Shown: positions 305 to 20,039, counted from the first letter of the stretch. The stretch: 32,000 nucleotides of DNA from Trichodesmium erythraeum IMS101 (GCF_000014265.1 NC_008312.1:600001-632000), one strand, 5' to 3'. A program made the numbers and translations. The notes: generated by a model from the sequence alone, not told the origin.

Positions 305-3121
305 ATGAAACTAAACACAAAAAGTATAGTAATAATAGATGCTAGTGTAGAGAACTACCAGCAATTATTAAACGGAGTCATTCCCGGAGTTAAACCTTTT
401 CTCCTCGGCGGCGACACTGACGGTATCCAACAGATAGGGGATATCCTCCAAAAACATCCAGAAACGGATACTCTTCATATTATCTCCCACGGTTCTCCTG
501 GTTGTCTGTATCTGGGAAATAGCCAATTGAGTTTGGATACTCTCAAAGGCTATGAGCCCCAACTACAACAATGGCAACTGGACAACCTTCTGCTCTATGG
601 TTGTAACGTCGCTGCCGGGGATGGGGGAGAAGAGTTTATTGATAAGTTGCATCGGTTGACGGGGGCTGAGATAGCGGCTTCTAAGTCTTTGACTGGGGCG
701 GCAGTTAAAGGGGGGAACTGGGAGTTGGAGGTGAGGACGGGCCAAACCAAACCCTCTCTGGCATTGCAAGTAGAAGCGATGGCTAGCTACTCTGATACTC
801 TTGAACTGCAATTTGAATGGGCTAAACATATCGGCGGTCAAGGTTTGACCTATGTTTATCGCATAACCACAGATAGCATCGGCAATGTTTTGGTGGCGGG
901 TGTTTTTGATGACAATATTGATATCGATGGCGACGGGAACAATGATTTTACCTCTAATAAGGATAGCAGCACCCGGGATGCTTATGTAGCCAAGTTCGAC
1001 AGCAATGGCAATTGGATCTGGGCTAAACAGATCGGCGGTAGGGGTTCTGAGGATATTAAAACGATAACCACAGACAGCAGCGGCAATGTCTTGGTGGCGG
1101 GTGGTTTTGGTGGCAACATTGATATCGACGGCGATGGAAACAATGATTTTTCCTCTAATAATGATTCCTCTAATAATGATGCTTTTGCGGCTAAGTTAGA
1201 CAGCAATGGCAATTTGGTCTGGGCTAAACAGATCGGCGGTAGCGTCACTACAGGTAACTATATTTCTGGCATAATCACAGACAGCAGTGGCAATGCCTTG
1301 GTGGCGGGTACTTTTAAGGGCAACATTGACATCGACGGCGATGGGAACAATGATTTTACCTCTAATAATGATGGCAGCAACGATTCTTATGTAGCTAAGT
1401 TTGACAGCAATGGCAATTTGGTCTGGGCTAAACGTATTGGCGGTAGCAATGGTAACTCTTCTGGTGCCATAACCATAGACAGCAGTGACAATGTCTTGGT
1501 GGCGGGTGGTTTTAAGGGCAACATTGATATCGACGATGATGGGAACAATAATTTTACCTCTAATGGGGAGGCGGATAGTTATGTAGCCAAGTTCGACAGC
1601 AATGGCAATTTTGTCTGGGCTAAACAGTTCGGCAGTATCCGTGCTGACTATATTAATAGCATAACCACAGACAGCAACGGCAATGTCTTGGTGGGGGGTC
1701 TTTTTAATAGCTACATTGACATCGACGGCGATGGGAACAATGATTTTACCTCAATTAGCGACATCGATGGTTATGTAGCCAAGTTAGACAGCAATGGCAA
1801 TTTGGTCTGGGCTAAACAGTTCGGCAGTAGCCTTGGTGGGGTTGTTAGGAGCCTGACCACAGACAGCAGCGGCAATGTCTTGGTGGTGGGTAATTTTAGT
1901 GGTGACGTTGACATCGACGGCGATGGGAACAATGATTTTACCTCTAATGGTAATGGTAACCATACTTTTACAGCCAAGTACGACAGCAATGGCAATTTGG
2001 TCTGGGTTAAACATAATCTACACAACGCCTACACCATAACCACAGACAGCAGCGGCAATGTCTTGATGGTGAGTGATTTTAATGGCAACATTGACATTGA
2101 CGGCGATGGGGACAATGATTTTACCTCTAATGGGGACAGGAATGGTTTGGTGGTGAAGTTCTCGGACGATACTAACTCCCCTCCCACGGATATCGCCCTC
2201 AGCAACAACACCATCGACGAAAACGTAGCAGCGAATACCCCGATAGGCAATCTCTCCAGCACAGACCCCGATACTGGAGATACCTTTACCTACAGTTTAG
2301 TCTCAGGTGCCGGAGACACCGACAACGGAACCTTCAACATCAGCGGAGACGAACTAACAATTAAAAGTTCCCCCGACTACGAAAACAAACCGAGTTACAG
2401 CATCAGAGTTGAAACCACCGATGCAGCAGGAGAAACTTATCAGAAGGAATTAACGATTAACGTTAACGACCTTTTTGACGGTAACAGCGGCAACGACATC
2501 CTCCGAGGCACCGCTGCCGCTGATTCCATCTACGGTTTAGAAGGGCGCGACAAGTTGTACGGCAAAGGCGGTAACGATATCATATCTGGAGGAGCAGACA
2601 GCGATATCGTTAAAGGTGACAGCGGTGACGACCAACTCAACGGCGATGATGGTCGGGACAGGCTTTATGGTGGTACCGGTAACGATATCATATCTGGAGG
2701 AGAAGACAAAGACATCGTTAAAGGTGACAGCGGCGACGACCAACTTAACGGTGATGCTGGTCCAGACAGGCTTTACGGTGGCACCGGCAACGACATTTTA
2801 CTCGGAGGAGACGGCAACGACTTACTTTATGGTCAAGGCGGAGACGACGAGCTTAATGGCGGACCTGGCATGGACAGACTTTACGGCAGTGACGGTATTG
2901 ATACCTTTGTCTTAGGGGAGGGCCAGGAACGCGATAGCATCTACAATTTCGCGGTCGGTACAGATAAAATCAAGTTAGAGGGCAGTCTGAGTTTTGGCCA
3001 ATTGCAGATTTTCCCAAGGGGTTCTTCTAGTTTAATTGAAGTCACTGCTACTGGAGAAGAATTGGCTATTGTGTTGGGGGTTAATGCGGCGGATATTAAC
3101 GACGGCAGCGTATTTATCTAG
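305..3121 (+). CDS. Large secreted surface/adhesin-like protein: N-terminal DUF4347-like domain, seven SBBP-type beta-propeller repeats, one cadherin-like domain, RTX Ca-binding nonapeptides and a C-terminal non-repeat tail
   Basis: 938-aa ORF. The N-terminus (IVIIDASV..LHIISHGSPGCLYLG..YGCNVAAG..GGNWELE) matches my memory of DUF4347. Seven ~62-70-aa units follow (ITTDSSGNVLVAG.F.GNIDIDGDGNNDFTSN...YVAKFDSNGNLVWAKQ.GG). PPTDIALSNNTIDENVAANTPIGNLSSTDPDTGDTFTYSL.. is cadherin-like. GGxGxD repeats follow (GNDIISGG.D.DIVKGDSGDDQLNGD..). Confidence 0.9.
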   Translation: MKLNTKSIVIIDASVENYQQLLNGVIPGVKPFLLGGDTDGIQQIGDILQKHPETDTLHIISHGSPGCLYLGNSQLSLDTLKGYEPQLQQWQLDNLLLYGCNVAAGDGGEEFIDKLHRLTGAEIAASKSLTGAAVKGGNWELEVRTGQTKPSLALQVEAMASYSDTLELQFEWAKHIGGQGLTYVYRITTDSIGNVLVAGVFDDNIDIDGDGNNDFTSNKDSSTRDAYVAKFDSNGNWIWAKQIGGRGSEDIKTITTDSSGNVLVAGGFGGNIDIDGDGNNDFSSNNDSSNNDAFAAKLDSNGNLVWAKQIGGSVTTGNYISGIITDSSGNALVAGTFKGNIDIDGDGNNDFTSNNDGSNDSYVAKFDSNGNLVWAKRIGGSNGNSSGAITIDSSDNVLVAGGFKGNIDIDDDGNNNFTSNGEADSYVAKFDSNGNFVWAKQFGSIRADYINSITTDSNGNVLVGGLFNSYIDIDGDGNNDFTSISDIDGYVAKLDSNGNLVWAKQFGSSLGGVVRSLTTDSSGNVLVVGNFSGDVDIDGDGNNDFTSNGNGNHTFTAKYDSNGNLVWVKHNLHNAYTITTDSSGNVLMVSDFNGNIDIDGDGDNDFTSNGDRNGLVVKFSDDTNSPPTDIALSNNTIDENVAANTPIGNLSSTDPDTGDTFTYSLVSGAGDTDNGTFNISGDELTIKSSPDYENKPSYSIRVETTDAAGETYQKELTINVNDLFDGNSGNDILRGTAAADSIYGLEGRDKLYGKGGNDIISGGADSDIVKGDSGDDQLNGDDGRDRLYGGTGNDIISGGEDKDIVKGDSGDDQLNGDAGPDRLYGGTGNDILLGGDGNDLLYGQGGDDELNGGPGMDRLYGSDGIDTFVLGEGQERDSIYNFAVGTDKIKLEGSLSFGQLQIFPRGSSSLIEVTATGEELAIVLGVNAADINDGSVFI
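842..2170 (+). repeat. Seven tandem ~190-200-bp coding repeats (SBBP-like propeller blades) inside the 305-3121 CDS
   Basis: ITTDS/IITDS/ITIDS/LTTDS motifs recur seven times in the ORF translation. The repeats also generate several spurious antisense ORFs. Confidence 0.75.
2570..2785 (+). repeat. Two tandem 108-bp (36-aa) RTX repeat units
   Basis: ggtaacgatatcatatctggagga... starts at 2570 and again at 2678. The units are nearly identical at the nucleotide level. Confidence 0.8.
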
Positions 3122-3618: not shown

Positions 3619-5285
3619 CGAAAAATTCAACCACACCCTCAGACCCAAATTATATTATCCCGCCAAATATCGCTGCCGATAAAAAAATTAGCCCTATCAC
3701 TACAAGTTTACCCCTCAACGATATCCTTATCAGTCACCTCACAAAATGGCAGTTTAGTAGTTCCCAAGCTTTTGCCAATACTGCCAACAATGACATTATT
3801 TTAAATGGTATCTTTAAACTTAACGGTAGAGTTATGGAAAGCTTAACCCGCGATAATATTTATACCGTAGATCAAAAGGCCAGTTATTTACAACTGCGAA
3901 GTGTTTCCCTAGATAGAAAAGTTACTACCAGAACAATTGAACCCAAAAGTCTGACCGGGTTAGAAATTTCCATGAGTTTAACAGCAGATTGTATTTTTCC
4001 AGATACTCCCAACGACCAAAAATGTAGCTATACCCCTAGTATAATTACAGATCGCAATAGCATAGATTCAGATTTTTTAGTACCCACCCGCATCTCACAA
4101 ACTTCTCAAGCAGGGGAAATTGTGAAACCAGAAACCTTAGCCTTCATGGAGCGCCCCGGTTTTCAAGCAGGAACAAGCACTCAACCTATAGGACTAGAGT
4201 TGTATTTTCCCAATGCCGGTGCTTTTCCTGGAAACACTCAATCTCAAAAAACTCAAATTGAGCGGAAAGAAGAAAACAATTATACAGCTTTCACCATAAA
4301 CTCACGAATTCGTCAAGTTGTCAAAGCTAACGATACAGAAGCAGTTCTCGGGCGCACAATTCAGGGTTTTGTATTTTTTGACGATGAAAACCAGGGGTTA
4401 AATACAACCATTCAAGGGGTGGCGCAATTTTTACCCGATATCATTCCCGACTTAAAAGGCAGTGAAAATCCTGTCAACTCCAGGATCAACCGCCATTTAT
4501 TTTTAGCCCCTAACAATACTCGTTTACCCGGCAACAGTTATACCATCTATTCCGCTGGAGTAGGTAGAGCCAAAAGTTTAACACCTGATATCACCAGCTT
4601 AAGTCAAGTTCCCAAAGGAAGTTATCATAGTATTTGGTTAGGTCTTTCCCCCATTATTGACCGTAGTATTAACCAAGGCCGTACATTCTATGACCCCACA
4701 AGTCCACAAGTAGCGACCACCAGTTCTGGCAGTGAAGGTGGGGAAGGTAGTAATGTAGATTTCACCTCTGCAATTAATCAAGACACATTTTCCACAGTTA
4801 GTCAAGACACATTTTCCACTCCCAACCTCCGTAATTTCTATGTTCAAGTTTATCTCCAATTTTTAGAACAAGATGCTAACCTCGTTCAGGAAAGTATTTA
4901 TCAGGAGAAAACAAGTTACTATCCCCATCTGAGCTTTGCCGGAAACTGGACTGGTCCTCAAGATCTTTTCCGTTATTATACTGGTGCCATTGCCTCTGAA
5001 AAAATTAAGTTTTACCTGGGTTTTGACTATACTATTAGTACAGTAAATGGTTGGAAGTTTCGCACTGGTGGCATCGGTTATATTAATCCAGATCGGGATT
5101 ATTACAGCCAAATTTTTGGCAATGCTACCAAAACATTTCGGATTAGTAAAAATGCTAATTTTACCTTGTCAACATTCTTTAATTATGCTATTGATCGGGA
5201 TACTAAAATTGGTAGTGTTGTCAGCAATTCACCTGCTAGCGCACTTGCTGCCAGAGCTCGTTTGAATTGGATAAAAGGTTCTGTT

Positions 5286-5477
5286 GGTGTCACCTACTAT
5301 TTTGGTAATGTTATACCCAATTCTTTTGAAAACCGCTTATTGCTAGAGTTGAGTATTCGTCCGCTCAAAACAGTTACTTTTGGTGTTACCTACTCTTGGG
5401 CTAAAGTTATACCCAATTCTTTTGAAGATCGCTTATTGCTAAAGTTGAGTATTCGTCCGCTCCCAACAGTTACTTTC
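5286..5477 (+). repeat. Tandem 96-bp (32-aa) duplication inside the 3834-5684 ORF
   Basis: GVTYYFGNVIPNSFENRLLLELSIRPLKTVTF is followed by GVTYSWAKVIPNSFEDRLLLKLSIRPLPTVTF. gttatacccaattcttttgaa occurs at 5310 and 5406. Confidence 0.85.
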
Positions 5478-6211
5478 TCTAGCTTTGTTGCACCAATTGA
5501 TAAAACTTCTAATTCCTCTCCCTATGGTGCCAGTGTAACTTGGAAACTGAAAAATAAATATAACAGTCCGACCCTATCTTTGAATTGGCAAAATCAGAAA
5601 CATAATTATGCTGATGACCCTTTTGGAAATGAAATTATCGTAAATGATAATAATTTTACAGTCATGTTTCGCCTTAGTAAGTAGAGGCAATTTATGAATT
5701 TCCCCTAAAAAAGTTAAATTTTCAACTAACCCAAGTTTGTTATCGTACTAATTACTAATTCCATAGTTATACCAAGTTCAGCAATTAATAAATATTGACC
5801 AGTATTCATCGCATTCCGAGGAACAGTTAAACGTTATAAACAATAAAAAAACTTTACATTTTAGAATCCAAAAAAACTAAATTTGAGTAATTACTATCAT
5901 AATTAATAGTCAACTTTAAATTGCGACTTTTATCAGTAATTATAGCTGACTGTTTTGCCAAATTAATAAACGCCTAATCAATTTATTCAGAGTTAAAATC
6001 AAACCCTCAAAAAAAAAGTATTAACAGTTTTTTTTTCTTTGAAATTATACTTATTGGAAGGTAAATAAAACTCTAATTTACTCTTATCATTAACAGCAAA
6101 ATAACGGTGAATACCTGTAGAAAATGGCATAGTTTTTTGATAGAAATTTGTTTGATAAAATCCCATTTTCAGAATATTACCCCGCAATATATAGGTATAA
6201 TTAAATTCAAA

Positions 6212-8019: not shown

Positions 8020-8757
8020 AAGCGCCATTTTTAGTAAAGTTTAATGGTATTTTTCCCCTACAAAACGGAAAAACAACGGATAGAGTCTACGTAGTAGAAA
8101 GAATAAATTTAGAGATTGATAGATTAGTTGCTCTAGCTACAAATAAGCCTGGTGTCAAACCACTGCTTGTGAATGGGAAGCCACTAAAAAGTGTCAATTA
8201 ACTATAAAACACAAGGGTAAAGCTAAGTACCAAAGTGTGCTCAAAGACCAGAAAAAAACTAGCCATAAGATTGAAGGGTTAACCTATCACCGAAATCGTT
8301 TTGTGGAGAATTATCTGCATAATACCAGTTTCTTAGTGGTTGAGTATTTAAGCACAAATAATATTGGTACTGTAGTCATAGGCAAAAATGATAATTGGAA
8401 ACAAGATGCAAACATCGGTAAAAAAAAACATCAAAACTTTACCCAAATACCCCCCTATAAGCTAATTCAACAGATAACTTATAAATGTCAACTAGCTGGG
8501 ATAAAAGTCATTGAAACGGATATTGTTACACCAGTCAAACTTCTGCACTTGACCAACAGCCACCAATTAAATATGAAACTTATGGAAGTAAACGAGTCAA
8601 ACGTTGTTTATTCAGGAGTGCAACTGGTATAGTCATTAATGCCGATATCAATGGCAGTCTTCAAATTTAAGACAATAAATTCCCAGAGGCATTTACTGCC
8701 GAGGGAATAGTGAGTTATGCGGTAGAGCCTGTATTGGTTAATCTAATATCAAGATAA
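8020..8757 (+). pseudogene. tnpB: TnpB (IS200/IS605-family RNA-guided nuclease) relic: 5'-truncated, frameshifted, internal stops, RuvC-I motif degraded
   Basis: YVVERINLEIDRLVALATNKPGVKPLLVNGKPLKSVN reads in one frame. ORF 8237-8632 follows (NNIGTVVIGKNDNWKQDANIGKKKHQNFTQIPPYKLIQQITYKCQLAGIKVIE). After a shifted frame comes YTSQTSALDQQPPIKYETYGSKRVKRCLFRSATGIVINADINGSLQI*, then ..EGIVSYAVEPVLVNLISR*. INLE stands where IDLG is expected. Confidence 0.7.
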
Positions 8758-11096: not shown

Positions 11097-11559
11097 CTAG
11101 GTTCAAAAAGTGCTTCCCACTAGCTGTGACCTACCTAACTTAACTAGTGTTTGAAGTTCTCTATCATATATTGTTGGTATGCCTAATGGGCATGTTTCTT
11201 TTCGTCTTGGTTTTGCTATCGGTGACTTTGCAGGTAGGGCTTGCTTTCATAAAATGCGATTTTAGAAGATATACCAAGTTAAATCTTGGCATGAGGGGCA
11301 AATTCTTAATGCCATCAATTCCAGCAGTTTTCTTACCTTGGTTGTCTTGGGTCACACCTCTAATAGCTAGAAATCTTGCATAATAACTCTTGCTCAGAAG
11401 TTTTTGGTAATTATGCACGCTGGGGATATCGCCACGGCTGGATCCTATGTAAATTAACTTTTGCAACTTAAATACATATTTTTCTACCCTCTTCCAGTTA
11501 ATGTCTCTCCATTTAATGTTTGGGTTGACACTGGCTTGACTGGATATATCATAAGTATC
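11097..11559 (-). pseudogene. Group II intron reverse transcriptase/maturase, N-terminal fragment with an internal stop
   Basis: NIKWRDINWKRVEKYVFKLQKLIYIGSSRGDIPSVHNYQKLLSKSYYARFLAIRGVTQDNQGKKTAGIDGIKNL...RNMPIRHTNNI*YDRELQTLVKL matches the conserved N-terminus of cyanobacterial intron RTs (..VTQDNQGKKTAG.DG..). Confidence 0.7.
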
Positions 11560-12204
11560 TCATACTACACTTAGAAAGAGTTTTGTGTTATTCAATTTTA
11601 TTTTAAGTTTTTAGCTTTATTAATTCCTAATAGTTACCATTAATTGCGTCTAATACTGATTACCTCAGCATTACTGCTTTTTAGCCAATCCTACTCCTTC
11701 TAAAACCTACAACCATTGTTTAGATTGATCAACAATTGCGCACTTTTGTTCTCGATCAATATATTTAGGTGTCGAGGGAGGCGTTTCCTCGTTCCTTTAT
11801 TCTTTTATTGCGACTGGTGGGCGTGGGGTAAATTCTCCGAGAGGGTTCGGTATGAATCTCTAGCACATAAGATTATTCATTGACCCTTTTCGCCCTACAC
11901 TCCATAGCTACCTTTGGAATATTTCCACATGACAGAAGTTTGATTACCTTTCTGTTTATCAACTTGTCAGTCTCTGCTATCATTATCGTTTCTGATAACT
12001 GTTACTGTCCTGTATTTAGAACAGCTTTGGGGGTTAATATTCAGTTTCTACCCCGTGGCCTACGCTGTCAACCTGACAACAAGGCGATAGGAATTGCAGT
12101 TATAAGGTAATAAGGGTTATTCTCCAGTTGAGGTTGTCCTCATGTGTTGATTTGGAACAGTCATTTATATCCTAATTAAAGGCTTAGTGGCCAGCGAGTC
12201 ACAC
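11097..12204 (-). mobile_element. Group II intron relic: 5' end, ~640 nt of ribozyme domains and the N-terminal part of the RT/maturase ORF; 3' part (rest of RT, domains V-VI) missing
   Basis: The minus strand from 12204 reads GTGTGACTCGCTGGCC. An RT frame follows. Homology stops exactly at the IS boundary (11096). No domain V-like sequence was found anywhere in the window. Confidence 0.7.
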
Positions 12205-12335
12205 GAGATCAAGTCAATAAGCAAAGTTTTTAGATTTACTTTAGATAAATTAGCAATGGTAATTGATTTTAAATTCACTACACATATAATCCTTCTAACA
12301 ATTTACAGAAATTGAATAAAATGCCAATTTTTTAG

Positions 12336-12392
12336 CTAAACATTTAACCTTGCAAGTTTTAGTAACCTGCAAGGTTAAATGTTTAGTTTTTT
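12336..12392. terminator. Near-perfect 20-bp-stem hairpin ~100 nt downstream of the collagen-like gene stop; the T6 tract is on the plus-strand side only
   Basis: ctaaacatttaaccttgcaag (12336-12356), loop ttttagtaac, ctgcaaggttaaatgtttag (12367-12386), then tttttt (12387-12392). On the minus strand (gene sense) an A-rich stretch follows the hairpin instead. Confidence 0.4.
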
Positions 12393-12481
12393 GTGATCAG
12401 TAATAGATTTAAATTACTTATCAGATTTTAGCTATTGAATTTCGTGTCATACCAGTTTTACCTTCCCAGTAAGGTTAAGAA

Positions 12482-15400
12482 TTAAGCTGGTACAACAATG
12501 TTGTTATTTAAATTCTGACCCAAAGGAGTATTTCCTCCAGCTATTCCTGGAAAATCGTCCGCGTTTATGAATTGACCGCTACCGCTAGGGAATTCAACAA
12601 AAAGTTGACCTGTAACCGAATCTTCTATTTGATTCAACTGACGACCTACTGGACTAATTCCAACTAAATTAGGCAGTACGAAGTTGTTAACTCCATCTCC
12701 TCCATACTGATTACCCACGATATTAAACAACTCATTATTACCAGTAATTGGCAATACTTGACCTTCAAGAGAGAAGAAACCAGGTGGCACAGATAGGCCA
12801 GGCCACAAAACTATTTCTCCAGTTATAAAGTCTGTGGGAGAGTTGTCTCCAGCAATTATATACCCGATAGGCAATGTTGGGATTCCAGGACCGATAGGAC
12901 CAGTTGGACCTACAGGACCAGCTGGACCTACGGGACCAGTTGGACCTACAGGACCAGTGGCACCAATAGGACCAGCCGGACCTACAGGACCTACAGGACC
13001 AGTAAAACCAGGAGCACCATCAGCTCCAGCCGGACCTACAGGACCAGTGGCACCAATAGGACCAGCCGGACCTACAGGACCTACAGGACCAGTAAAACCA
13101 GGAGCACCATCAGCTCCAGCCGGACCTACAGGACCTACAGGACCAGGGGCACCACTTGGGCCTATAGGACCTACAGGACCTATTGGACCAGCGGGACCAG
13201 GAGCTCCAGCAGGACCTACAGGACCTATTGGACCAGCGGGACCAGGAGCTCCAGCAGGACCAGCAAGACCAGGAACACCATCAGCTCCAGCCGGACCCAC
13301 AGGACCTATTGGACCTACAGGACCAGGAGCTCCAGTTGGACCTACAGGACCTACAGGACCTACAGGACCAGGGGCACCACTTGGACCTATAGGACCAATG
13401 GGACCAGTAAGACCAGGAACACCATCAGCTCCAGCAGGACCTACAGGACCTATTGGACCAGCGGGACCAGGAGCTCCAGCAGGACCAGCAAGACCAGGAA
13501 CACCATCAGCTCCAGCCGGACCCACAGGACCTATTGGACCTACAGGACCAGGGGCACCACTTGGACCTATAGGACCAATGGGACCAGGAGCTCCAGTTGG
13601 ACCTACAGGACCTACAGGACCTACAGGACCAGCAAGACCAGGAATACCATCAGCTCCAGCCGGACCCACAGGACCTATGGGACCTACAGGACCAGGGGCA
13701 CCACTTGGACCTATAGGACCAATGGGACCAGGAGCTCCAGTTGGACCTACAGGACCTATTGGACCAGCAGGACCAGCAAGACCAGGAACACCATCAGCTC
13801 CAGCCGGACCTACAGGACCTATTGGACCTACAGGACCAGCAGGACCAGCAAGACCAGGAACACCATCAGCTCCAGCAGAACCTACAGGACCTACAGGACC
13901 TACAGGACCTATTGGACCTACAGGACCAGCAAGACCAGGAACACCATCAGCTCCAGCCGGACCCACAGGACCTATCGGACCTACAGGACCAGCGGGACCA
14001 GGAGCTCCAGCAGGACCAGCAAGACCAGGAACACCATCAGCTCCAGCGGGACCTACAGGACCTATTGGACCAGCTGGACCAGGAGCTCCAGCAGGACCTA
14101 CAGGACCTACAGGACCAGCAAGACCAGGAACACCATCAGCTCCAGCCGGACCCACAGGACCTATTGGACCAGCTGGACCAGGGGCTCCACTTGGACCTAT
14201 AGGACCAATGGGACCAGTAAGACCAGGAACACCATCAGCTCCAGCCGGACCCACAGGACCTATTGGACCAGCCGGACCAGGGGCTCCAGTTAGACCTATA
14301 GGACCTACAGGACCTACAGGACCCACAGGACCAGGAGCACCAGTTGGACCTACAGGACCTACAGGACCAGCAAGACCAGGAACACCATCAGCTCCAGCCG
14401 GACCCACAGGACCTATTGGACCTACAGGACCAGCGGGACCAGGGGCACCACTTGGACCTATAGGACCAATGGGACCAGTAAGACCAGGAACACCATCAGC
14501 TCCAGCTGGACCTACAGGACCTATTGGACCAGCCGGACCAGCGGGACCAGGAGCTCCAGTAGGACCTACAGGACCTACAGGACCTACAGGACCTACAGGA
14601 CCTACAGGACCAGCAAGACCAGGAACACCATCAGCTCCAGCCGGACCCACAGGACCTATTGGACCTACAGGACCAGGGGCACCACTTGGACCTATAGGAC
14701 CAATGGGACCAGTAAGACCAGGAACACCATCAGCTCCAGCCGGACCTACAGGACCTATTGGACCAGCCGGACCAGCGGGACCAGGAGCTCCAGTAGGACC
14801 TACAGGACCTACAGGACCTACAGGACCAGCAAGACCAGGAACACCATCAGCTCCAGCTGGACCTACAGGACCTATTGGACCAGCCGGACCAGGGGCTCCA
14901 GTTAGACCTATAGGACCTACAGGACCTACAGGACCCACAGGACCAGGAGCACCAGTTGGACCTACAGGACCTACAGGACCAGCAAGACCAGGAACACCAT
15001 CAGCTCCAGCCGGACCCACAGGACCTATTGGACCTACAGGACCAGCGGGACCAGGGGCACCACTTGGACCTATAGGACCAATGGGACCAGTAAGACCAGG
15101 AACACCATCAGCTCCAGCTGGACCTACAGGACCTATTGGACCAGCCGGACCAGCGGGACCAGGAGCTCCAGTAGGACCTACAGGACCTACAGGACCTACA
15201 GGACCTACAGGACCAGCAAGACCAGGAACACCATCAGCTCCAGCCGGACCCACAGGACCTATTGGACCTACAGGACCAGGGGCACCACTTGGACCTATAG
15301 GACCAATGGGACCAGTAAGACCAGGAACACCATCAGCTCCAGCCGGACCTACAGGACCTATTGGACCAGCCGGACCAGCGGGACCAGGAGCTCCAGTAGG

Positions 15401-18091
15401 ACCTACAGGACCTACAGGACCTACAGGACCAGCAAGACCAGGAACACCATCAGCTCCAGCTGGACCTACAGGGCCTATTGGACCAGCCGGACCAGGGGCT
15501 CCAGTTAGACCTATAGGACCTACAGGACCTACAGGACCCACAGGACCAGGAGCACCAGTTGGACCTACAGGACCTACAGGACCTACAGGACCAGGGGCAC
15601 CACTTGGACCTATAGGACCAATGGGACCAGTAAGACCAGGAACACCATCAGCTCCAGCCGGACCTACAGGACCTATTGGACCAGCGGGACCAGGAGCTCC
15701 AGCAGGACCAGCAAGACCAGGAACACCATCAGCTCCAGCCGAACCTACAGGACCTATTGGACCTACAGGACCAGGGGCACCACTTGGACCTATAGGACCA
15801 ATGGGACCAGTAAGACCAGGAACACCATCAGATCCAGCCGGACCCACAGGACCTATTGGACCAGCGGGACCAGCGGGACCTACAGGACCTATTGGACCAG
15901 CGGGACCAGCGGGACCACCAGCGGGACCAGCGGGACCTACAGGACCTATTGGACCAGCGGGACCAGGAGCTCCAGTTGGACCCACAGGACCTATTGGACC
16001 AGCCGGACCAGGGGCTCCACTTGGACCTACAGGACCTACAGGACCAGCAAGACCAGGAACACCATCAGTTCCAGCCGGACCCACAGGACCTATTGGACCA
16101 GCGGGACCAGGAGCTCCAGCAGGACCAGCAAGACCAGGAACACCATCAGCTCCAGCCGGACCCACAGGACCTATTGGACCTACAGGACCAGGAGCTCCAG
16201 TTGGACCTACAGGACCTACAGGACCAGCAAGACCAGGAACACCATCAGCTCCAGCTGGACCTACAGGACCTATTGGACCTACAGGACCAGCGGGACCAGA
16301 AGCTCCAGCAGGACCAGCAAGACCAGGAACACCATCAGCTCCAGCCGGACCTACAGGACCTATTGGACCAGCCGGACCAGGGGCACCACTTGGACCTATA
16401 GGACCAATAGGACCAGTAAGACCAGGAACACCATCAGCTCCAGCCGAACCCACAGGACCTATTGGACCAGCGGGACCAGCGGGACCAGGAGCTCCAGTTG
16501 GACCTACAGGACCTACAGGACCAGCGGGACCAGGAGCTCCAGCAGGACCAGCAAGACCAGGAACACCATCAGCTCCAGCCGGACCCACAGGACCTATTGG
16601 ACCTACAGGACCAGCGGGACCAGGAGCTCCAGTTGGACCTACAGGACCTACAGGACCAGCAAGACCAGGAACACCATCAGCTCCAGCTGGACCTACAGGA
16701 CCTATTGGACCTACAGGACCAGCGGGACCAGGAGCTCCAGTTGGACCTACAGGACCTACAGGACCTATAGGACCTACAGGACCAGCAAGACCAGGAACAC
16801 CATCAGCTCCAGCCGGACCTACAGGACCTACAGGACCTACAGGACCAGCAAGGCCAGGAACACCATCAGCTCCAGCCGGACCCACAGGACCTATTGGACC
16901 AGCCGGACCAGGGGCACCACTTGGACCTATAGGACCAATGGGACCAGTAAGACCAGGAACACCATCAGCTCCAGCCGGACCCACAGGACCTATTGGACCA
17001 GCCGGACCAGGGGCTCCAGTTAGACCTATAGGACCTACAGGACCTACAGGACCTACAGGACCTACAGGACCTACAGGACCTACAGGACCAGCAAGACCAG
17101 GAACACCATCAGCTCCAGCTGGACCTACAGGACCTATTGGACCAGCGGGACCAGGGGCTCCACTTGGACCTATAGGACCAATGGGACCAGTAAGACCAGG
17201 AACACCATCAGCTCCAGCCGGACCTACAGGACCTATTGGACCAGCTGGACCAGCAAGACCAGCGGGACCAGGAGCTCCAGTTGGACCTACAGGACCTACA
17301 GGACCTACAGGACCAGCAAGACCAGGAACACCATCAGCTCCAGCCGGACCTACAGGACCTACAGGACCTACAGGACCAGCGGGACCAGGAGCTCCAGTTG
17401 GACCTACAGGACCTACAGGACCTACAGGACCAGCAAGACCAGGAACACCATCAGCTCCAGCCGGACCTACAGGACCTATTGGACCTACAGGACCAGGGGC
17501 ACCACTTGGACCTATAGGACCAATGGGACCAGTAAGACCAGGAACACCATCAGCTCCAGCCGGACCTACAGGACCTATTGGACCAGCTGGACCAGCAAGA
17601 CCAGGAACACCATCAGCTCCAGCTGGACCTACAGGACCAGCGGGACCAGGAGCTCCAGTTGGACCTACAGGACCTACAGGACCAGGGGCACCACTTGGAC
17701 CAATAGGACCAATAGGACCAGTGAGACCAGGAACACCATCAGCTCCAGCTGGACCTACAGGACCAGCAAGACCAGGAACACCATCAGCTCCAGCCGGACC
17801 CACAGGACCTATTGGACCTACAGGACCCACAGGACCAGGGGCACCACTTGGACCGATAGGACCCACAGGACCAGGGGCACCACTTGGACCTGCAGGACCA
17901 ACAGGACCAGGTGAACCTGGTATTATTGGAATTGGGACTTCTATAAATAGAGAGGGATCAGCAATTGGGGGCCCATTAACTAACTCAAAACCTGGTACAG
18001 TTATTGATTCTCCAGGTACAAGAGTGTTAATAGGAGTGCTTTGGAAAGAAGAAGTATCTGGAAAAACAATTTGATCTAAAAAATCTTCCAT
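12482..18091 (-). CDS. Giant collagen-like (Gly-X-Y) protein with a short non-repeat N-terminus and a ~134-aa C-terminal phage tail-collar-like domain
   Basis: The ORF track gives 1873 aa from a TTG at 18103. The first ATG is at 18091 (MEDFLDQ..). Gly occurs at every third residue for ~1675 residues. The C-terminus [54 protein letters not shown] matches the tail-collar consensus (GEI..F.G...P.GW..CDGQ.L.I..N.ALF.L.G..YGGDG...F.LPDLRG) as I recall it. Confidence 0.9.
12887..17917 (-). repeat. ~5-kb 9-bp-periodic Gly-Pro-X / Gly-X-Pro coding repeat; markedly GC-richer than the flanks
   Basis: The plus strand is essentially (ggacc[a/t]nnn)n. The motif [11 protein letters not shown](A/T)GP recurs every ~14-20 triplets. 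Confidence 0.95.
14280..15494 (-). repeat. Two near-identical higher-order tandem units (612 bp and 603 bp) within the collagen repeat, followed by a partial third copy
   Basis: ggggctccagttagacctataggacc starts at 14280, 14892 and 15495, and again near 17001. By eye, copies 1 and 2 differ by one 9-bp ggacctaca unit and very few substitutions. Confidence 0.85.
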
Positions 18092-18121
18092 TTCTTTTCT
18101 CAAAAAAGTAATTTTTACAAG

Positions 18122-18150
18122 ATTATAAGTGAGAACTTCAGTTTTGAGAA
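18122..18150 (-). promoter_or_regulatory. Candidate sigma70-type promoter of the collagen-like gene
   Basis: The gene-sense strand reads TTCTCA (18150-18145), a 17-nt spacer, then TATAAT (18127-18122). The -10 hexamer ends ~30 nt upstream of the ATG at 18091. Confidence 0.3.
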
Positions 18151-19133
18151 TAAAAATTTTGTGATCTATCTATTCAAGTACTATGCAAATCTAATGAGTT
18201 ACAACAAATTTTAGTGGCCCAATACTTTTTATCTGTACACCTAAATTTTTTTTGTTAAGTAAAACCTTTAAATTATTCCAACTTAACTGAAATTAAAATA
18301 GATGCTCTATCTAGAAACTCAAAAACTAATTATGCTTTACAACCAACTTTATATAGCAGTATCCTGAATATAAAAACATCAGCTTTCATTCCATATTCTT
18401 ATTATTCTTACTCCTAATAGTTTATTTACTATTTACATCAACCCCATTCAATACTCTTAACTTTTCTTGATATAAAAAAATTCAAAATACAAAACTGAAA
18501 GGTATAAAAAAATAACCGTAAAAAAAATATTTAACTAGTAAATTAGATAATAAAAATTATTACAGAGACGTTCAACTTTTTATAAAGTTCCCTAGTTAGG
18601 AAATAAAAAGATTTAATTGAAAATTTGATTTTGAACTTGAAACCCTGAATTTACACTAATGATCAAGAAATAAGCTCTCAAGTTAATCGTTGAATGTGCT
18701 ACAGTTTTTTGCGCTATCAGGGAGGGGACTAAAATAAAATTATGGTTTCCCGGCCTCTGACTTGACTGGCCAGTACTGAGATGCCACTACTTGCTCAGGT
18801 ATTTACAATTTTCAACTCAAAGTATAGTCTATAAAAAAAGATGTACAGAAAATAATATGTCAATATGCCAGAGCGCATTACTTTAACTGAAATGACTCAC
18901 TCATTGGACATTACTACCTTGGCACCTTTTTGGTTAATCACCAACTTCAGTAACCAACAACAAGCTTTTGAGAATCTACCCCTTTTTTTCCTATATTTGT
19001 GTCTGTATCCGTCCACTTACACATCAACTACTTAATGAACTTAGCCTAAATTTTATTAAGTCCGAATCCTGAAATTACTTCCTTGAGAAGACCATATACA
19101 TATTGAAAACTACCCTGTTGAAAACTACTTTAT

Positions 19134-19440
19134 ATGAATGAAGAAAAAAAATTAGCAGGTTCTATCACACCTCAATGACTAGAAGAACTAAAAACAGAAC
19201 AAGTTAAAAAGTTACAAAATAGACAGGTAATAGTTTTAGAGGTAAGGCGGAACCAGGAAAAGGCTCTAGAGTATTCTCTTTAGGGACTAATACCTATCTC
19301 AACACTCACTTTCAGATAGATGAACAGATAAACAGAAATTTATTAACCATGACACAGCGTCTGACCCTGAAATAGATAAATAGCTATGGTAAGTTATTGC
19401 ACTAGTTTTTCATTTGTTCCTTGGACTAGCTTTACTGATG
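19134..19440 (+). pseudogene. Rhodanese-like single-domain gene relic with several in-frame stops
   Basis: MNEEKKLAGSITPQ*LEELKTEQ..RQVIVLEVRRNQEKALEYSL*GLIPISTL.. resembles the rhodanese pattern I.P.EL....LIDVRE..E...G.I.GA.LIPL. A later MVSYCTS resembles the active-site loop region. Confidence 0.35.
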
Positions 19441-20039
19441 AACTTACCATTTGACTAATAAATAAAGTTAATAGCTTAACATTTAAAGGGGAGAAAAAAG
19501 GAAATTTTGTATTTTCTGGCCTCTGACTTCAGTTGTAGATCATGCTTTCCATAAAGGAGACAAAAAATAAAGCTACGACCCTAGAGGCTAACCAATAAAT
19601 TAAAAGACATTTCCTTGTCATGTTACTATACATGGCCCAAAAATTGAAATGTCGATTGGATAAGATGTTGCTACATTAAGTTTTTTTGTCGGTGATAGCA
19701 AAACTTTTAGTGGAGTGACACGTCTAAAAATATAGGCCATTGTCAAGTAAGTGTGATTCGTGATTGCAAACAAACTCCTATATAAGTCAGGCAAGTCTTC
19801 AACTGAGGATAACTAAGCATAGTTATACAGGTTAAATTTCTATATTAAAGGATGCAGAGTAACTTTCATCGCTTAGGTTTAGTCTGAAGGTCCATGGGCT
19901 ATTAGTTCCCAGCTCTTAATGTCTAACCTTTGATACGCAACAAGCCCTTGATTTAACCGGAGAGTATCAAGATAAGTTTAATAAAATGTCAAAAAATATA
20001 GGCAAATATCTTCAGATAATTTAATAATATGTACATGAT

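What the first reader, a model, noticed from the sequence alone, without database searches (positions are those of the whole stretch)
12482..18103. Giant prokaryotic collagen fused to a phage tail-collar-like C-terminal domain
A single ~5.6-kb gene encodes roughly 560 consecutive Gly-X-Y triplets. It has a ~58-aa non-repeat N-terminus with no obvious signal peptide. The ~134-aa C-terminal domain carries the hallmark of the phage tail fibre 'collar' fold (GEI.L.PG...P.GF....GQ.L.I..N..LF...GN.YGGDG...F.LPNL.G). In phage fibres and in C1q-like or Bcl-type bacterial collagens, a globular C-terminal domain nucleates trimerisation and confers binding. This protein could therefore be a very long trimeric stalk (my estimate is several hundred nm) tipped by a receptor-binding-like head. 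No adjacent secretion, glycosylation or prolyl-hydroxylase genes are visible; its neighbours are only mobile-element relics and 2.5 kb of gene-free DNA. A collagen-like sheath protein has been reported experimentally in Trichodesmium erythraeum (I recall the name TrpA). I cannot tell from sequence alone whether this ORF is that gene or whether its tail-collar head has been analysed.
Basis: partly seen in the sequence, partly recalled or inferred. Interest (0 to 1): 0.7.

Follow-up and report, generated by a model that had tools for sequence, protein, structure and literature searches.

The report
Giant cyanobacterial collagen with tail-fibre head
A 5.6-kb gene of the ocean cyanobacterium Trichodesmium erythraeum encodes a collagen rod about half a micrometre long, capped by a domain otherwise typical of phage tail fibres; it is real but is very probably the collagen-like sheath protein already published for this strain, and its make-up shows a bacterial origin rather than the claimed transfer from animals.

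Summary
Window 12482-18091 (minus strand, ATG start) is one 1869-aa ORF. It has a 58-aa N-terminal module, then 1678 residues of Gly-X-Y (559 triplets plus one extra Gly), then a 133-aa C-terminal unit. That unit matches Pfam PF07484 (Phage Tail Collar) at 65 bits against a cut-off of 24.

The window is the Trichodesmium erythraeum IMS101 chromosome. By elimination the gene is probably Tery_0395. A collagen-like gene and protein of this strain are already published (Layton 2008; TrpA, Price & Anandan 2013/2014). I could not obtain the TrpA sequence to prove identity.

What I add:
- The head is one complete Collar unit. Of the 148 best-scoring bacterial relatives of the head examined, 146 carry Collar units in multiples of three per chain, which fits a trimeric head on a triple helix.
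- Third-codon-position GC (GC3) of the array is 8.6%. The msrA and dienelactone-hydrolase neighbours are conserved in Dapis, Okeania and other Trichodesmium, and no animal collagen domains are present. These three points argue against the published animal-to-cyanobacterium transfer.
- The protein has no Lys and one Arg, so it is nearly invisible to tryptic proteomics.
- Short-read assemblies break inside the array, and its interior rests on the IMS101 assembly alone.

Verdict: real, correctly read, largely already known. Interest is modest.

The parts
12482..18091 (-). Coding sequence of the collagen-Collar protein (1869 aa from the ATG; an in-frame TTG at 18103 is the longest possible start). 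Probably locus Tery_0395 of T. erythraeum IMS101.
   Evidence: ORF list and translation. Flanking proteins exactly match IMS101 accessions ABG49855, ABG49857, ABG49860, ABG49861 and ABG49864, which leaves one accession (ABG49863) for this gene.
17918..18091 (-). N-terminal 58-aa acidic, Pro-rich module with no signal peptide and no Lys or Arg. Conserved motifs: FPD, TLxPG, TVPGxELxxGPPI, [11 protein letters not shown].
   Evidence: 61% identical to the N-terminus of the complete orthologue on metagenome contig L023. No hit in Pfam, PHROGs or NCBIfam. No homologue by word-indexed protein search.
12884..17917 (-). Collagen domain of 1678 residues: 559 Gly-X-Y triplets plus one extra Gly. X is 66% Pro; Y is mostly Val, Ala, Pro or Ile. 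There are 43 regularly recurring G-A-D-G-V-P-G-L-type acidic motifs. Predicted triple-helix length is about 480 nm.
   Evidence: Pfam PF01391 at E 3e-231. GC3 is 8.6%.
15914..15919 (-). GGT-GGT: the single break of the Gly-X-Y register (one extra Gly), about 40% of the way along the rod.
14253..15472 (-). Recent tandem duplication of about 0.6 kb inside the array. Exact repeats of 350 and 300 nt lie at offsets of 612 and 603 nt.
   Evidence: Exact-repeat map. 92% of the array is covered by exact repeats of 40 nt or more.
12485..12883 (-). C-terminal 133-aa Collar unit. It has a leading strand ([11 protein letters not shown]), the Collar core, a variable 55-aa tail, and a closing segment that aligns with the inter-unit strand of multi-Collar proteins.
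   Evidence: Alignment A3. AF2 model with pLDDT 72-93 over residues 1-78 and low confidence beyond.
12656..12820 (-). Core match to Pfam PF07484 (Phage Tail Collar), residues 22-76 of the head.
   Evidence: Pfam at 65.4 bits, E 4.3e-18. PHROG tail proteins. Profile hits to solved tail fibres: 9cuy 1.4e-8, 8kec 4e-8, T4 gp12 1ocy 4e-5. The Foldseek top five are all phage fibres, though with weak E-values.
12336..12386 (-). Perfect 23-bp-stem hairpin about 100 nt after the stop codon. Likely a 3' end or transcript-stabilising structure. It has no U tract.
   Evidence: RNA fold gives -38.3 kcal/mol, z = -8.3. The surrounding 3' flank 12208-12441 is 76-80% identical in Dapis, Okeania and metagenome orthologues.
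18122..18150 (-). Promoter-like site (TTCTCA-17-TATAAT), with the -10 hexamer about 30 nt upstream of the ATG.
   Evidence: Consensus scan. The hexamers and the whole stretch down to the ATG are nearly invariant in the orthologous contig L023.
18104..18662 (-). Upstream non-coding DNA. It is more conserved (roughly 60-90% identity per 50-nt block, 89% over the proximal 250 nt) than the N-terminal coding sequence it precedes.
   Evidence: Alignments with L023.

Best explanation
This is the giant collagen-like surface protein gene of Trichodesmium erythraeum IMS101. It is very probably the published 'collagen-like gene'/trpA. It belongs to a small family confined, so far as these searches show, to the Trichodesmium-Okeania-Dapis group of marine filamentous cyanobacteria.

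Shown:
- Each chain has a conserved 58-aa N-terminal module, 559 Gly-X-Y triplets with one register break, and one complete phage-type Collar unit.
- The gene is chromosomal and sits next to the same neighbours in several genera.
- Its codon usage is like the host's.
- The array has grown by repeat duplication in place.

Inferred:
- Three Collar units associate, as in trimeric phage fibres and as imitated by bacterial proteins with three Collar units in one chain.
- This sets the register of the three chains and nucleates a C-to-N zipper into a triple helix of about 480 nm.
- The helix needs no hydroxyproline. It is stabilised by Pro in X and by Val, Ile, Ala, Thr or Pro in Y.
- It is uncharged except for about 43 Asp per chain, spaced about 11 nm apart.
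- The rod is exported by an unknown route that is not Sec. It forms part of the sheath or inter-trichome matrix, with the N-terminal module as anchor and the Collar head as the distal, possibly glycan-binding, tip.
For: - Architecture.
- Organism and locus.
- Homology of the head to tail fibres: Pfam at 65 bits; PHROG tail families; profile hits to solved short and long tail fibres, including T4 gp12; the Foldseek top five are all phage fibres; actinophage and Pelagibacter-phage tail proteins are 35-41% identical.
- Trimer logic: 146 of the 148 best-scoring Collar relatives examined have 3, 6 or 9 units, with unit spacing of 120-150 aa, the size of this head. The head begins and ends with the inter-unit strand.
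- Native origin: array GC3 is 8.6%, against 20-31% in seven of the nine neighbouring genes tested, with GGT, CCT, GCT, ACT and GAT codons dominant. Orthologous heads lie directly upstream of msrA and, in six of the eight orthologous loci, a dienelactone hydrolase, in Dapis, Okeania, Trichodesmium MAGs and an unnamed cyanobacterial MAG. There are no phage, prolyl-hydroxylase or secretion genes in 32 kb.
- A complete orthologue with the same three modules exists on L023.
- Growth in place: exact internal repeats of 350 and 300 nt.
- Surface location and expression come from the literature: Layton 2008 (PMC2443231) and the TrpA work summarised in PMC8441504.
- Residue propensities for Hyp-free stability come from my own knowledge of host-guest peptide studies (Persikov et al. 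2000) and were not computed here.
Against: - Identity with TrpA is not proven. The TrpA papers are not held. The exact protein is absent from the protein collection under every start tried on either strand. The 2008 paper used a draft entry of 1340 aa with 383 uninterrupted triplets, which does not match the 223 + 336 seen here.
- The interior of the array is supported only by the IMS101 assembly. Every short-read assembly examined except the short contig L023 breaks within a few hundred bases of either end of the array. The one complete orthologue, on L023, has only about 89 triplets and may be collapsed.
- No signal peptide and no secretion genes were found, so the export route is unknown.
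- The structure model is a monomer, and its last 55 residues are unreliable. Foldseek E-values are weak, 0.13-3.
- Trimerisation, folding direction, orientation and ligand binding are all untested.
Confidence: 0.7

Rival explanations
1. The head is only a folding device (a registration and trimerisation knob like the T4 foldon or a collagen C-propeptide) and binds nothing. The protein is a purely structural, hydrophobic matrix fibre.
For: Pfam's own description of PF07484 (from memory) stresses a structural role. This head lacks the LPxHxH motif present in many multi-Collar relatives (alignment A3). That motif resembles the metal site of the T4 gp12 receptor-binding head (my knowledge). The 55-aa tail is poorly conserved and varies in length between genera.
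Against: The head evolves faster than its neighbours: 70-78% aa identity against 88-94% for MsrA and the dienelactone hydrolase. This is more typical of an exposed, interacting surface than of a buried folding core. Related domains sit in receptor-binding fibres.
Confidence: 0.2
2. The gene was acquired from an animal, possibly through a virus, as proposed by Layton et al. 2008 and repeated in a 2012 Trichodesmium review.
For: The array is long and nearly uninterrupted, similar in scale to fibrillar collagens. Animal collagens are the best full-length database hits at 35-44% identity.
Against: - That identity is what Gly plus Pro composition alone gives.
- The non-collagen ends are a cyanobacteria-specific N-module and a bacterial/phage Collar unit. 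There is no COLFI propeptide.
- There is no Lys at all, so no animal-type cross-link or glycosylation sites.
- GC3 is 8.6%, more AT-biased than the host's own genes.
- Orthologues occupy the same chromosomal position in three genera.
- The array shows recent internal duplication.
Confidence: 0.02
3. It is a working or recently decayed part of a prophage or tailocin (a tail fibre gene), not a cellular protein.
For: Collar domains and collagen-like motifs both occur in tail fibres. NCBI names the truncated orthologues 'phage tail protein' or 'tail fiber protein'. Mobile-element relics lie nearby.
Against: - No other phage gene lies in 32 kb.
- The same msrA-linked position recurs in several genera.
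- No relative was found in 2.9 million viral contigs.
- The nearby relics are a TnpB fragment and a group II intron RT fragment. They are absent from the short collagen-msrA spacer of the other genera.
- A 480-nm rod is far longer than the tail fibres I know of (my knowledge, not measured here).
Confidence: 0.04
4. The long ORF is an artefact: mis-assembled or non-functional repeat DNA that stays open only because GGN-CCN repeats lack stop codons.
For: The antisense frame is also open for 1746 codons. 92% of the array is exact repeat. The draft and finished versions of the gene differ in length. The full protein is absent from the protein collection.
Against: - The sense frame alone keeps Gly in register for 1678 residues.
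- It joins two conserved non-repeat modules in frame.
- Both ends are reproduced base for base in independent assemblies.
- Promoter and 3' hairpin flanks are conserved.
- The longest exact repeat (350 nt) is, from my knowledge of read lengths, probably shorter than a typical Sanger read.
- Expression and surface location are reported in the literature.
Confidence: 0.04

Closest known systems
T. erythraeum IMS101 collagen-like protein / TrpA (Layton et al. 2008, PMC2443231; Price & Anandan 2013; Price et al. 2014)
   Same: Same strain. Both are anomalously long, intron-free Gly-X-Y genes. The published protein is reported as expressed and on the trichome surface or outer sheath, and as non-fibril-forming. 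From memory, the 2014 paper notes a single Gly interruption, which this ORF has.
   Different: The 2008 paper analysed a draft entry of 1340 aa with 383 triplets starting at residue 2. The finished sequence gives 1869 aa and 559 triplets. The Layton 2008 paper, the one source I could read, does not mention the Collar head, codon usage or orthologues, and it argues for animal origin. I could not read the TrpA papers, so sequence identity is unverified.
Phage tail fibres with a Collar domain (T4 gp12 short tail fibre, PDB 1OCY/5IV5; cyanophage A-1(L) tail fibre 8KEC) and phage fibres with collagen-like motifs (Smith et al. 1998, cited in PMC4621102)
   Same: The Collar core is homologous. Both are trimeric fibrous proteins with a distal globular part. 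Collagen-like stretches are known in fibres.
   Different: There is no phage context and no viral-contig relative. The stalk is collagen over 1678 residues rather than beta-helical. The head lacks the HxH motif. The N-terminal module is unrelated to baseplate attachment domains.
BclA of Bacillus anthracis (exosporium nap; PDB 1WCK) and Pasteuria collagen-like fibres
   Same: The working principle is the same: N-terminal anchor, collagen stalk of variable repeat number, and a C-terminal trimeric globular head that nucleates folding and faces outward. Repeat number is strain-variable.
   Different: The BclA head is a C1q/TNF-like jelly roll, not a Collar. From my knowledge, the BclA stalk is far shorter (tens of triplets), Thr-rich and glycosylated. 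Here there are 559 triplets, only 42 Thr in the collagen array, and no adjacent glycosyltransferase for it.
Streptococcal Scl1/Scl2 and Legionella Lcl collagen-like adhesins
   Same: They are bacterial Hyp-free triple helices attached to a trimerising globular domain and used for adhesion. NCBIfam models for them match the repeats here.
   Different: Those matches are compositional. Scl proteins have an N-terminal V domain, a signal peptide and an LPXTG anchor, and rely on charged residues. This protein has no signal peptide, no anchor motif, no Lys and one Arg.
Single-chain bacterial proteins with three tandem Collar units (COG4675/'MdpB'-like, often with RTX repeats)
   Same: They are the closest sequence relatives of the head outside the family, at about 30-47% identity. 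Their unit length is about the size of this head.
   Different: They place three units in one polypeptide and have no collagen. This protein supplies one unit per chain and would need three chains.

Membership tests
Collagen triple-helix repeat proteins (Pfam PF01391; bacterial collagen-like proteins) | Long uninterrupted Gly-X-Y repeats matching the family model | tested here: met
   559 triplets with one extra Gly. PF01391 at E 3.2e-231, 748 bits.
Collagen triple-helix repeat proteins (Pfam PF01391; bacterial collagen-like proteins) | Composition able to support a stable helix without hydroxyproline (high Pro and/or charge pairs) | tested here: inconclusive
   The collagen domain is 27.5% Pro, with Pro in 66% of X positions; GPV, GPA and GPI are the commonest triplets. 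No charge pairs are possible, because there is no Lys or Arg. Stability was not computed or measured.
Collagen triple-helix repeat proteins (Pfam PF01391; bacterial collagen-like proteins) | An adjacent non-collagen domain that trimerises, and an actual triple helix | not testable with these tools
   Only a monomer could be modelled. Trimerisation is inferred from the three-unit rule.
Phage Tail Collar domain (Pfam PF07484) | HMM match above the curated cut-off | tested here: met
   65.4 bits against 24, E 4.3e-18, covering model positions 1-55 of 57. The match is not reported when the full 1869-aa protein is scanned.
Phage Tail Collar domain (Pfam PF07484) | Fold and sequence relation to the collar of solved tail fibres (T4 gp12) | tested here: met
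   Profile against PDB sequences: 9cuy 1.4e-8, 8kec 4e-8, 1ocy 4e-5. The Foldseek top five hits are all phage fibres, but E is 0.13-3 and TM 0.3-0.4, so the structural part alone is weak.
Functional phage or tailocin tail fibre | Encoded within a phage or tailocin structural gene cluster | tested here: not met
   The neighbours are msrA, a dienelactone hydrolase, sqdB/sqdX, an adenylate cyclase and similar genes. The same position is kept across genera. No viral-contig relatives were found.
Animal fibrillar collagen (the proposed donor class) | C-propeptide (COLFI, PF01410), Lys/Hyl cross-link sites, charged D-periodic pattern | tested here: not met
   The only non-collagen Pfam domain is Collar. 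There are 0 Lys, 1 Arg and 0 His. GC3 is 8.6%.
BclA/C1q-type exosporium collagens | C-terminal C1q/TNF-like head | tested here: not met
   BclA (1wck) matched the profile only through the collagen columns (profile positions 8-68), not through the head. The head is a Collar.
TrpA of T. erythraeum IMS101 | Same strain and a collagen-like ORF | tested here: met
   Exact IMS101 flanking proteins. No other Trichodesmium collagen-like protein appeared among the 120 best hits listed (of 2017 significant) for the full-length query.
TrpA of T. erythraeum IMS101 | Sequence or locus-tag identity with the published gene | not testable with these tools
   The TrpA papers are not held. No paper in the library mentions Tery_0392-0395 or the matching accessions.

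The most novel reading that the evidence does not exclude
The family is a domesticated, vertically inherited descendant of a fibre-type adhesin. The Collar head would be a specific ligand-binding tip held about 0.5 micrometre from the cell on a Lys-free, hydrophobic, Asp-studded rod. Rapid repeat expansion and contraction would tune its reach between strains. On this reading it is the physical tether that sets trichome-trichome (and perhaps dust or epibiont) adhesion, and hence colony architecture, in Trichodesmium. It would be controlled by the unusually conserved upstream non-coding region and exported by a route not yet described for collagens.
Probability: 0.2. Interest if true: 0.6.

Novelty: already known. 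Interest (0 to 1): 0.3.

Why it matters
Trichodesmium supplies a large share of new nitrogen to the tropical ocean, and its ecology depends on forming colonies. A half-micrometre surface collagen is a plausible part of that glue.

The practical gains here are corrections and handles rather than a discovery.

1. The textbook-style example of eukaryote-to-Trichodesmium gene transfer is not supported by the gene's own end domains, codon usage or position next to the same neighbours.
2. The head is a defined, expressible 133-aa Collar unit. This gives a concrete hypothesis for trimerisation and for binding assays.
3. With no Lys and one Arg, the protein escapes tryptic proteomics. Its absence from proteomes therefore says nothing about expression.
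4. Short-read assemblies and MAGs systematically truncate the gene and mislabel the stump as 'phage tail protein'. Surveys will undercount this family and overcount prophage remnants.

Tried and rejected
- **Exact look-ups.** I looked up the protein with ATG and TTG starts and five antisense starts. None is in the protein collection, so the annotated form could not be recovered. Look-up of MsrA from the TTG start also failed.
- **Full-length homologue search.** It returned only compositional collagen hits, mostly animal type VII. This was useless for orthology, but it showed no close paralogue.
- **N-terminal module.** The word-indexed protein search found nothing. The JGI metagenome scan found nothing. 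Pfam, PHROGs and NCBIfam found nothing. The module's conservation was found only through contig L023, which came from the second metagenome scan with the head.
- **Viral contigs.** No relatives of the head.
- **First AF2 run.** A 6-sequence alignment failed, with pLDDT 33. A 33-sequence alignment of Collar units rescued residues 1-78.
- **First deep alignment (A2).** It still contained collagen columns, so its PDB search was cluttered with collagen chains.
- **Self-BLAST of the array.** It was uninformative. I replaced it with an exact k-mer map.
- **Rfam on the window.** No hits.
- **Literature.** The TrpA papers and the Layton supplement are not held. Locus-tag and accession searches were empty.
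- **Readings considered and rejected.** These were antisense coding, animal origin, a prophage fibre, and an assembly artefact. Reasons are given under the rival explanations.

Full report
**Observation.** The window has a single ORF at 12482-18103 on the minus strand. Its translation starts with a TTG. The only ATG of the N-terminal region is at 18091, preceded by GAGAAAAGAA, giving 1869 aa. A register walk finds Gly at every third residue in two runs of 223 and 336 triplets. The runs are separated by one extra Gly, encoded by the GGT GGT pair at 15914-15919. That makes 1678 residues, or 559 triplets plus one residue. The flanks are 58 aa (from the ATG) and 133 aa.

The opposite strand also has a 1746-codon ORF (12834-18074). 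It lacks a regular Gly register and has no Pfam match, whereas the sense protein scores E 3e-231 for PF01391. The antisense ORF is a by-product of GGN-CCN repeats.

**The head.** On its own, the last 133 aa match PF07484 (Phage Tail Collar) at 65.4 bits (cut-off 24, E 4.3e-18), covering nearly the whole model. They also match PHROG tail-protein families.
- A direct search of PDB sequences finds a short tail fibre (9cuy).
- A profile built from Collar units finds 9cuy (1.4e-8), the cyanophage A-1(L) tail fibre 8kec (4e-8) and T4 gp12 1ocy (4e-5).
- An AlphaFold2 monomer built on a 33-sequence alignment is confident for residues 1-78 (pLDDT 72-93) and poor for the last 55.
- Its five best Foldseek matches in the PDB are all phage fibres (8kec chains A and B, 1ocy, 5iv5, 2xgf). 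E-values are only 0.13-3.
- Phage proteins with this domain (Microbacterium, Arthrobacter and Pelagibacter phages) are 35-41% identical. The two I opened are 188 and 456 aa by their annotated coordinates; I did not inspect their sequences for collagen repeats.
- Scanning the full 1869-aa protein reports only Collagen, not Collar. Automated annotation of the intact protein may therefore miss the head.

**Why a Collar head suits a collagen.** An exhaustive HMMER search of 1.84 billion representatives finds 7357 relatives of the head. Of the 148 best I could examine, 146 carry Collar units in multiples of three: 142 with three, two with six and two with nine. Unit spacing is mostly 120-150 residues, the size of this head. 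None of the best 150 contains a collagen tract.

In the alignment, the head begins with [11 protein letters not shown], which aligns with the QPSLxLNYIIA strand that joins successive units in those proteins. It ends with [18 protein letters not shown], which aligns with the same strand of the next junction. So the 133 aa are one complete unit, strand to strand. Three units appear to be the working assembly, and a collagen triple helix delivers exactly three. This is inference. It also carries a ranking bias, because multi-unit proteins score higher, but that bias does not explain why counts of four or five are missing. The head lacks the LPxHxH motif common in the multi-unit relatives.

**Organism and locus.** Flanking proteins are exact matches to T. 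erythraeum IMS101:
- Tery_0387 (ABG49855)
- Tery_0389 (ABG49857)
- a dienelactone hydrolase (ABG49860)
- a TnpB relic labelled Tery_0393 (ABG49861)
- sqdB (ABG49864)
- an adenylate cyclase (ABG49866)

Counting accessions leaves ABG49862 for msrA and ABG49863 (which would be Tery_0395) for the collagen gene. This is by elimination and is not verified. The exact protein is not in the collection with any start I tried on either strand, and it did not surface in the full-length search.

**What is already published.** Layton et al. 2008 (PMC2443231) described 'the' collagen-like gene of this strain from a draft entry (gi 71671489). That entry has 1340 aa and 383 uninterrupted triplets starting at residue 2. 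They showed antibody labelling on the cell surface and argued for transfer from a Devonian or Silurian animal. They mention neither a tail-type domain nor codon usage. A 2012 review repeats the transfer as an example of HGT. Price & Anandan 2013 and Price et al. 2014 named the protein TrpA, reported expression through growth, a role in trichome integrity and a location in the outer sheath, as summarised in PMC8441504. I could not read them. The draft numbers do not match the finished sequence. Either the draft collapsed the repeats or, less likely, there is a second gene. No close paralogue appeared among the 120 best hits listed.

**Origin.** Four lines of evidence contradict an animal source.
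1. The array is 59% GC in a roughly 34% GC context, but its GC3 is 8.6%. That is lower than the 20-31% of seven of the nine neighbouring genes tested. GGT, CCT, GCT, ACT and GAT dominate. The high GC is forced by Gly, Pro and Ala codons, and the free positions look like the host's.
2. Both end modules are prokaryotic. There is no COLFI propeptide and no Lys at all.
3. Orthologous heads (70-82% identical over the aligned parts, and 98% in a Trichodesmium MAG) occur in Dapis (three strains), Okeania (two MAGs), other Trichodesmium MAGs and an unnamed cyanobacterial MAG. Where the contig extends far enough, the head is followed within about 0.4-0.8 kb by msrA (seven of eight loci) and then, in six of them, the dienelactone hydrolase. 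In IMS101 that spacer has grown to 2.9 kb by insertion of a group II intron RT fragment and other DNA.
4. The array carries exact internal repeats of 350 and 300 nt at offsets of about 0.6 kb, and 92% of it is exact repeat of 40 nt or more. It has grown in place.

The head is less conserved (70-78%) than MsrA (91-94%) or the hydrolase (88-91%).

**A complete orthologue.** Metagenome contig L023 (2676 nt) holds an entire gene of 426 codons. It has the same N-terminal module (61% identity, with motifs FPD, TLxPG, TVPGxELxxGPPI and [11 protein letters not shown]), about 89 triplets, a Collar core and a shorter tail. Its short array may be real or a short-read collapse. An acidic residue next to G-x-P-G recurs in most of the orthologues: GADGVPGL here, GEPGVPG in L023, and GLDGAPG or GADGSPG in several Dapis, Okeania and Trichodesmium orthologues.

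**Assembly status.** Independent assemblies match the window base for base at 11834-13410 and 17822-18457. Every short-read assembly examined except L023 stops inside the array. The truncated stumps are annotated 'phage tail protein'. The interior therefore rests on the finished IMS101 genome alone. From my knowledge of read lengths, the longest exact repeat (350 nt) is probably within reach of Sanger reads, which is reassuring but not proof.

**Physical properties.**
- Each chain is 158 kDa with pI about 4.05.
- It has 0 Lys, 1 Arg (residue 1817), 0 His, 0 Cys, and 62 Asp + Glu.
- The commonest triplets are GPV 147, GPA 98, GPI 83, GAP 51, GAD 41 and GVP 40.
- At 0.286 nm per residue the helix would be about 480 nm long.
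- From my knowledge of host-guest peptide work, Pro in X and Ile, Ala, Val or Thr in Y are among the more stabilising choices without Hyp. This was not computed here.
- One Arg and no Lys mean trypsin yields one fragment of about 1800 residues and one 52-residue peptide. Standard proteomics is effectively blind to the protein.

**Regulation and context.**
- A TTCTCA-17-TATAAT site lies about 30 nt upstream of the ATG.
- The 250 nt upstream are 89% identical to L023, and the sequences diverge immediately after the ATG.
- Similarity of roughly 60-90% extends to 18662. It is interrupted by an IMS101-specific insertion of about 200 nt and resumes at mostly about 60-80% up to about 19450.
- Downstream, a perfect 23-bp hairpin (-38 kcal/mol, z -8.3) sits at 12336-12386 within a flank conserved in all genera.
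- Rfam finds nothing.
- The 32-kb window holds no phage, prolyl-hydroxylase, collagen-glycosylation or secretion genes.
- The N-terminus has no signal peptide, so export, if the published surface location is right, is unexplained.

**Verdict.** The object is a known one, a gene already in the literature as the Trichodesmium collagen-like or TrpA protein. Its architecture (collagen plus Collar) is one that, from memory, Pfam already records as occurring.

The additions here are:
- the explicit definition of the head as one complete Collar unit
- the three-unit argument for trimerisation
- a family with a conserved N-module and conserved neighbours in three genera
- evidence against the animal-transfer story
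- the practical warnings about proteomics and assemblies

I rate it 'already known', with interest about 0.3.

Noticed in passing
window 18104-19450: The 'gene-free' DNA upstream of the collagen gene is conserved with the orthologous metagenome contig L023. It is 89% identical over the proximal 250 nt and roughly 60-90% per 50-nt block out to 18662, more conserved than the N-terminal coding sequence (61% aa). An IMS101-specific insertion lies at about 18663-18870. This could be a long regulatory region or an unannotated RNA.
   Followed up: partly
window 12336-12386 (within the conserved flank 12208-12441): A perfect 23-bp-stem hairpin lies about 100 nt after the stop codon (-38.3 kcal/mol, z -8.3). 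It is conserved in Dapis, Okeania and metagenome orthologues, and it has no U tract.
   Followed up: partly
window 12834-18074 (+): A 1746-codon antisense ORF covers the whole array. It has no Pfam hit and no regular Gly register. It is a compositional artefact that gene callers could pick by mistake.
   Followed up: yes
proteins P0006-P0153 (relatives of the head); loci L009-L012: 146 of the 148 top Collar-domain proteins carry exactly 3, 6 or 9 Collar units per chain. Many have an LPxHxH motif in each unit, and some lie next to or are fused with RTX repeats. This looks like a pseudo-trimer rule that I have not seen stated.
   Followed up: partly
window 12485-18091 (protein level): hmmscan of the full-length protein reports only Collagen. 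The Collar match (65 bits on the isolated C-terminus) disappears. Domain annotation of intact giant collagens may systematically miss their heads.
   Followed up: no
window 305-3121 (Tery_0387): A DUF4347-SBBP-cadherin-RTX protein has GC 47% and GC3 50%, far above its neighbours (GC3 20-31%). It is compositionally foreign-looking. It varies between Trichodesmium populations (93-100% identity, with internal repeats).
   Followed up: no
window 8237-8632 and 11164-11466: A TnpB/IS605 OrfB fragment (Tery_0393) and a group II intron reverse-transcriptase N-terminal fragment lie near msrA. The intron RT fragment lies between the collagen gene and msrA, and the TnpB fragment lies between msrA and the dienelactone hydrolase. 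The collagen-msrA spacer is 2.9 kb in IMS101, against about 0.4-0.8 kb in the other genera, where these insertions are absent.
   Followed up: partly
loci L001-L005, L022 (Dapis/Okeania orthologues): The C-terminal tails after the Collar core are longer than in Trichodesmium. Five of the six (all but L002) end in a shared short motif (..LAFAGE, LVFAGE, MFADE or LAFADS) that Trichodesmium lacks (..NNNIVVPA). This could be a sorting or secretion signal that differs between genera.
   Followed up: no
window 3834-5684 (Tery_0389): A 616-aa conserved protein has no Pfam-A hit in my scan. It is listed with DUF8396 in the precomputed table. JGI metagenome versions are 717 aa, so the IMS101 start may be miscalled.
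   Followed up: no
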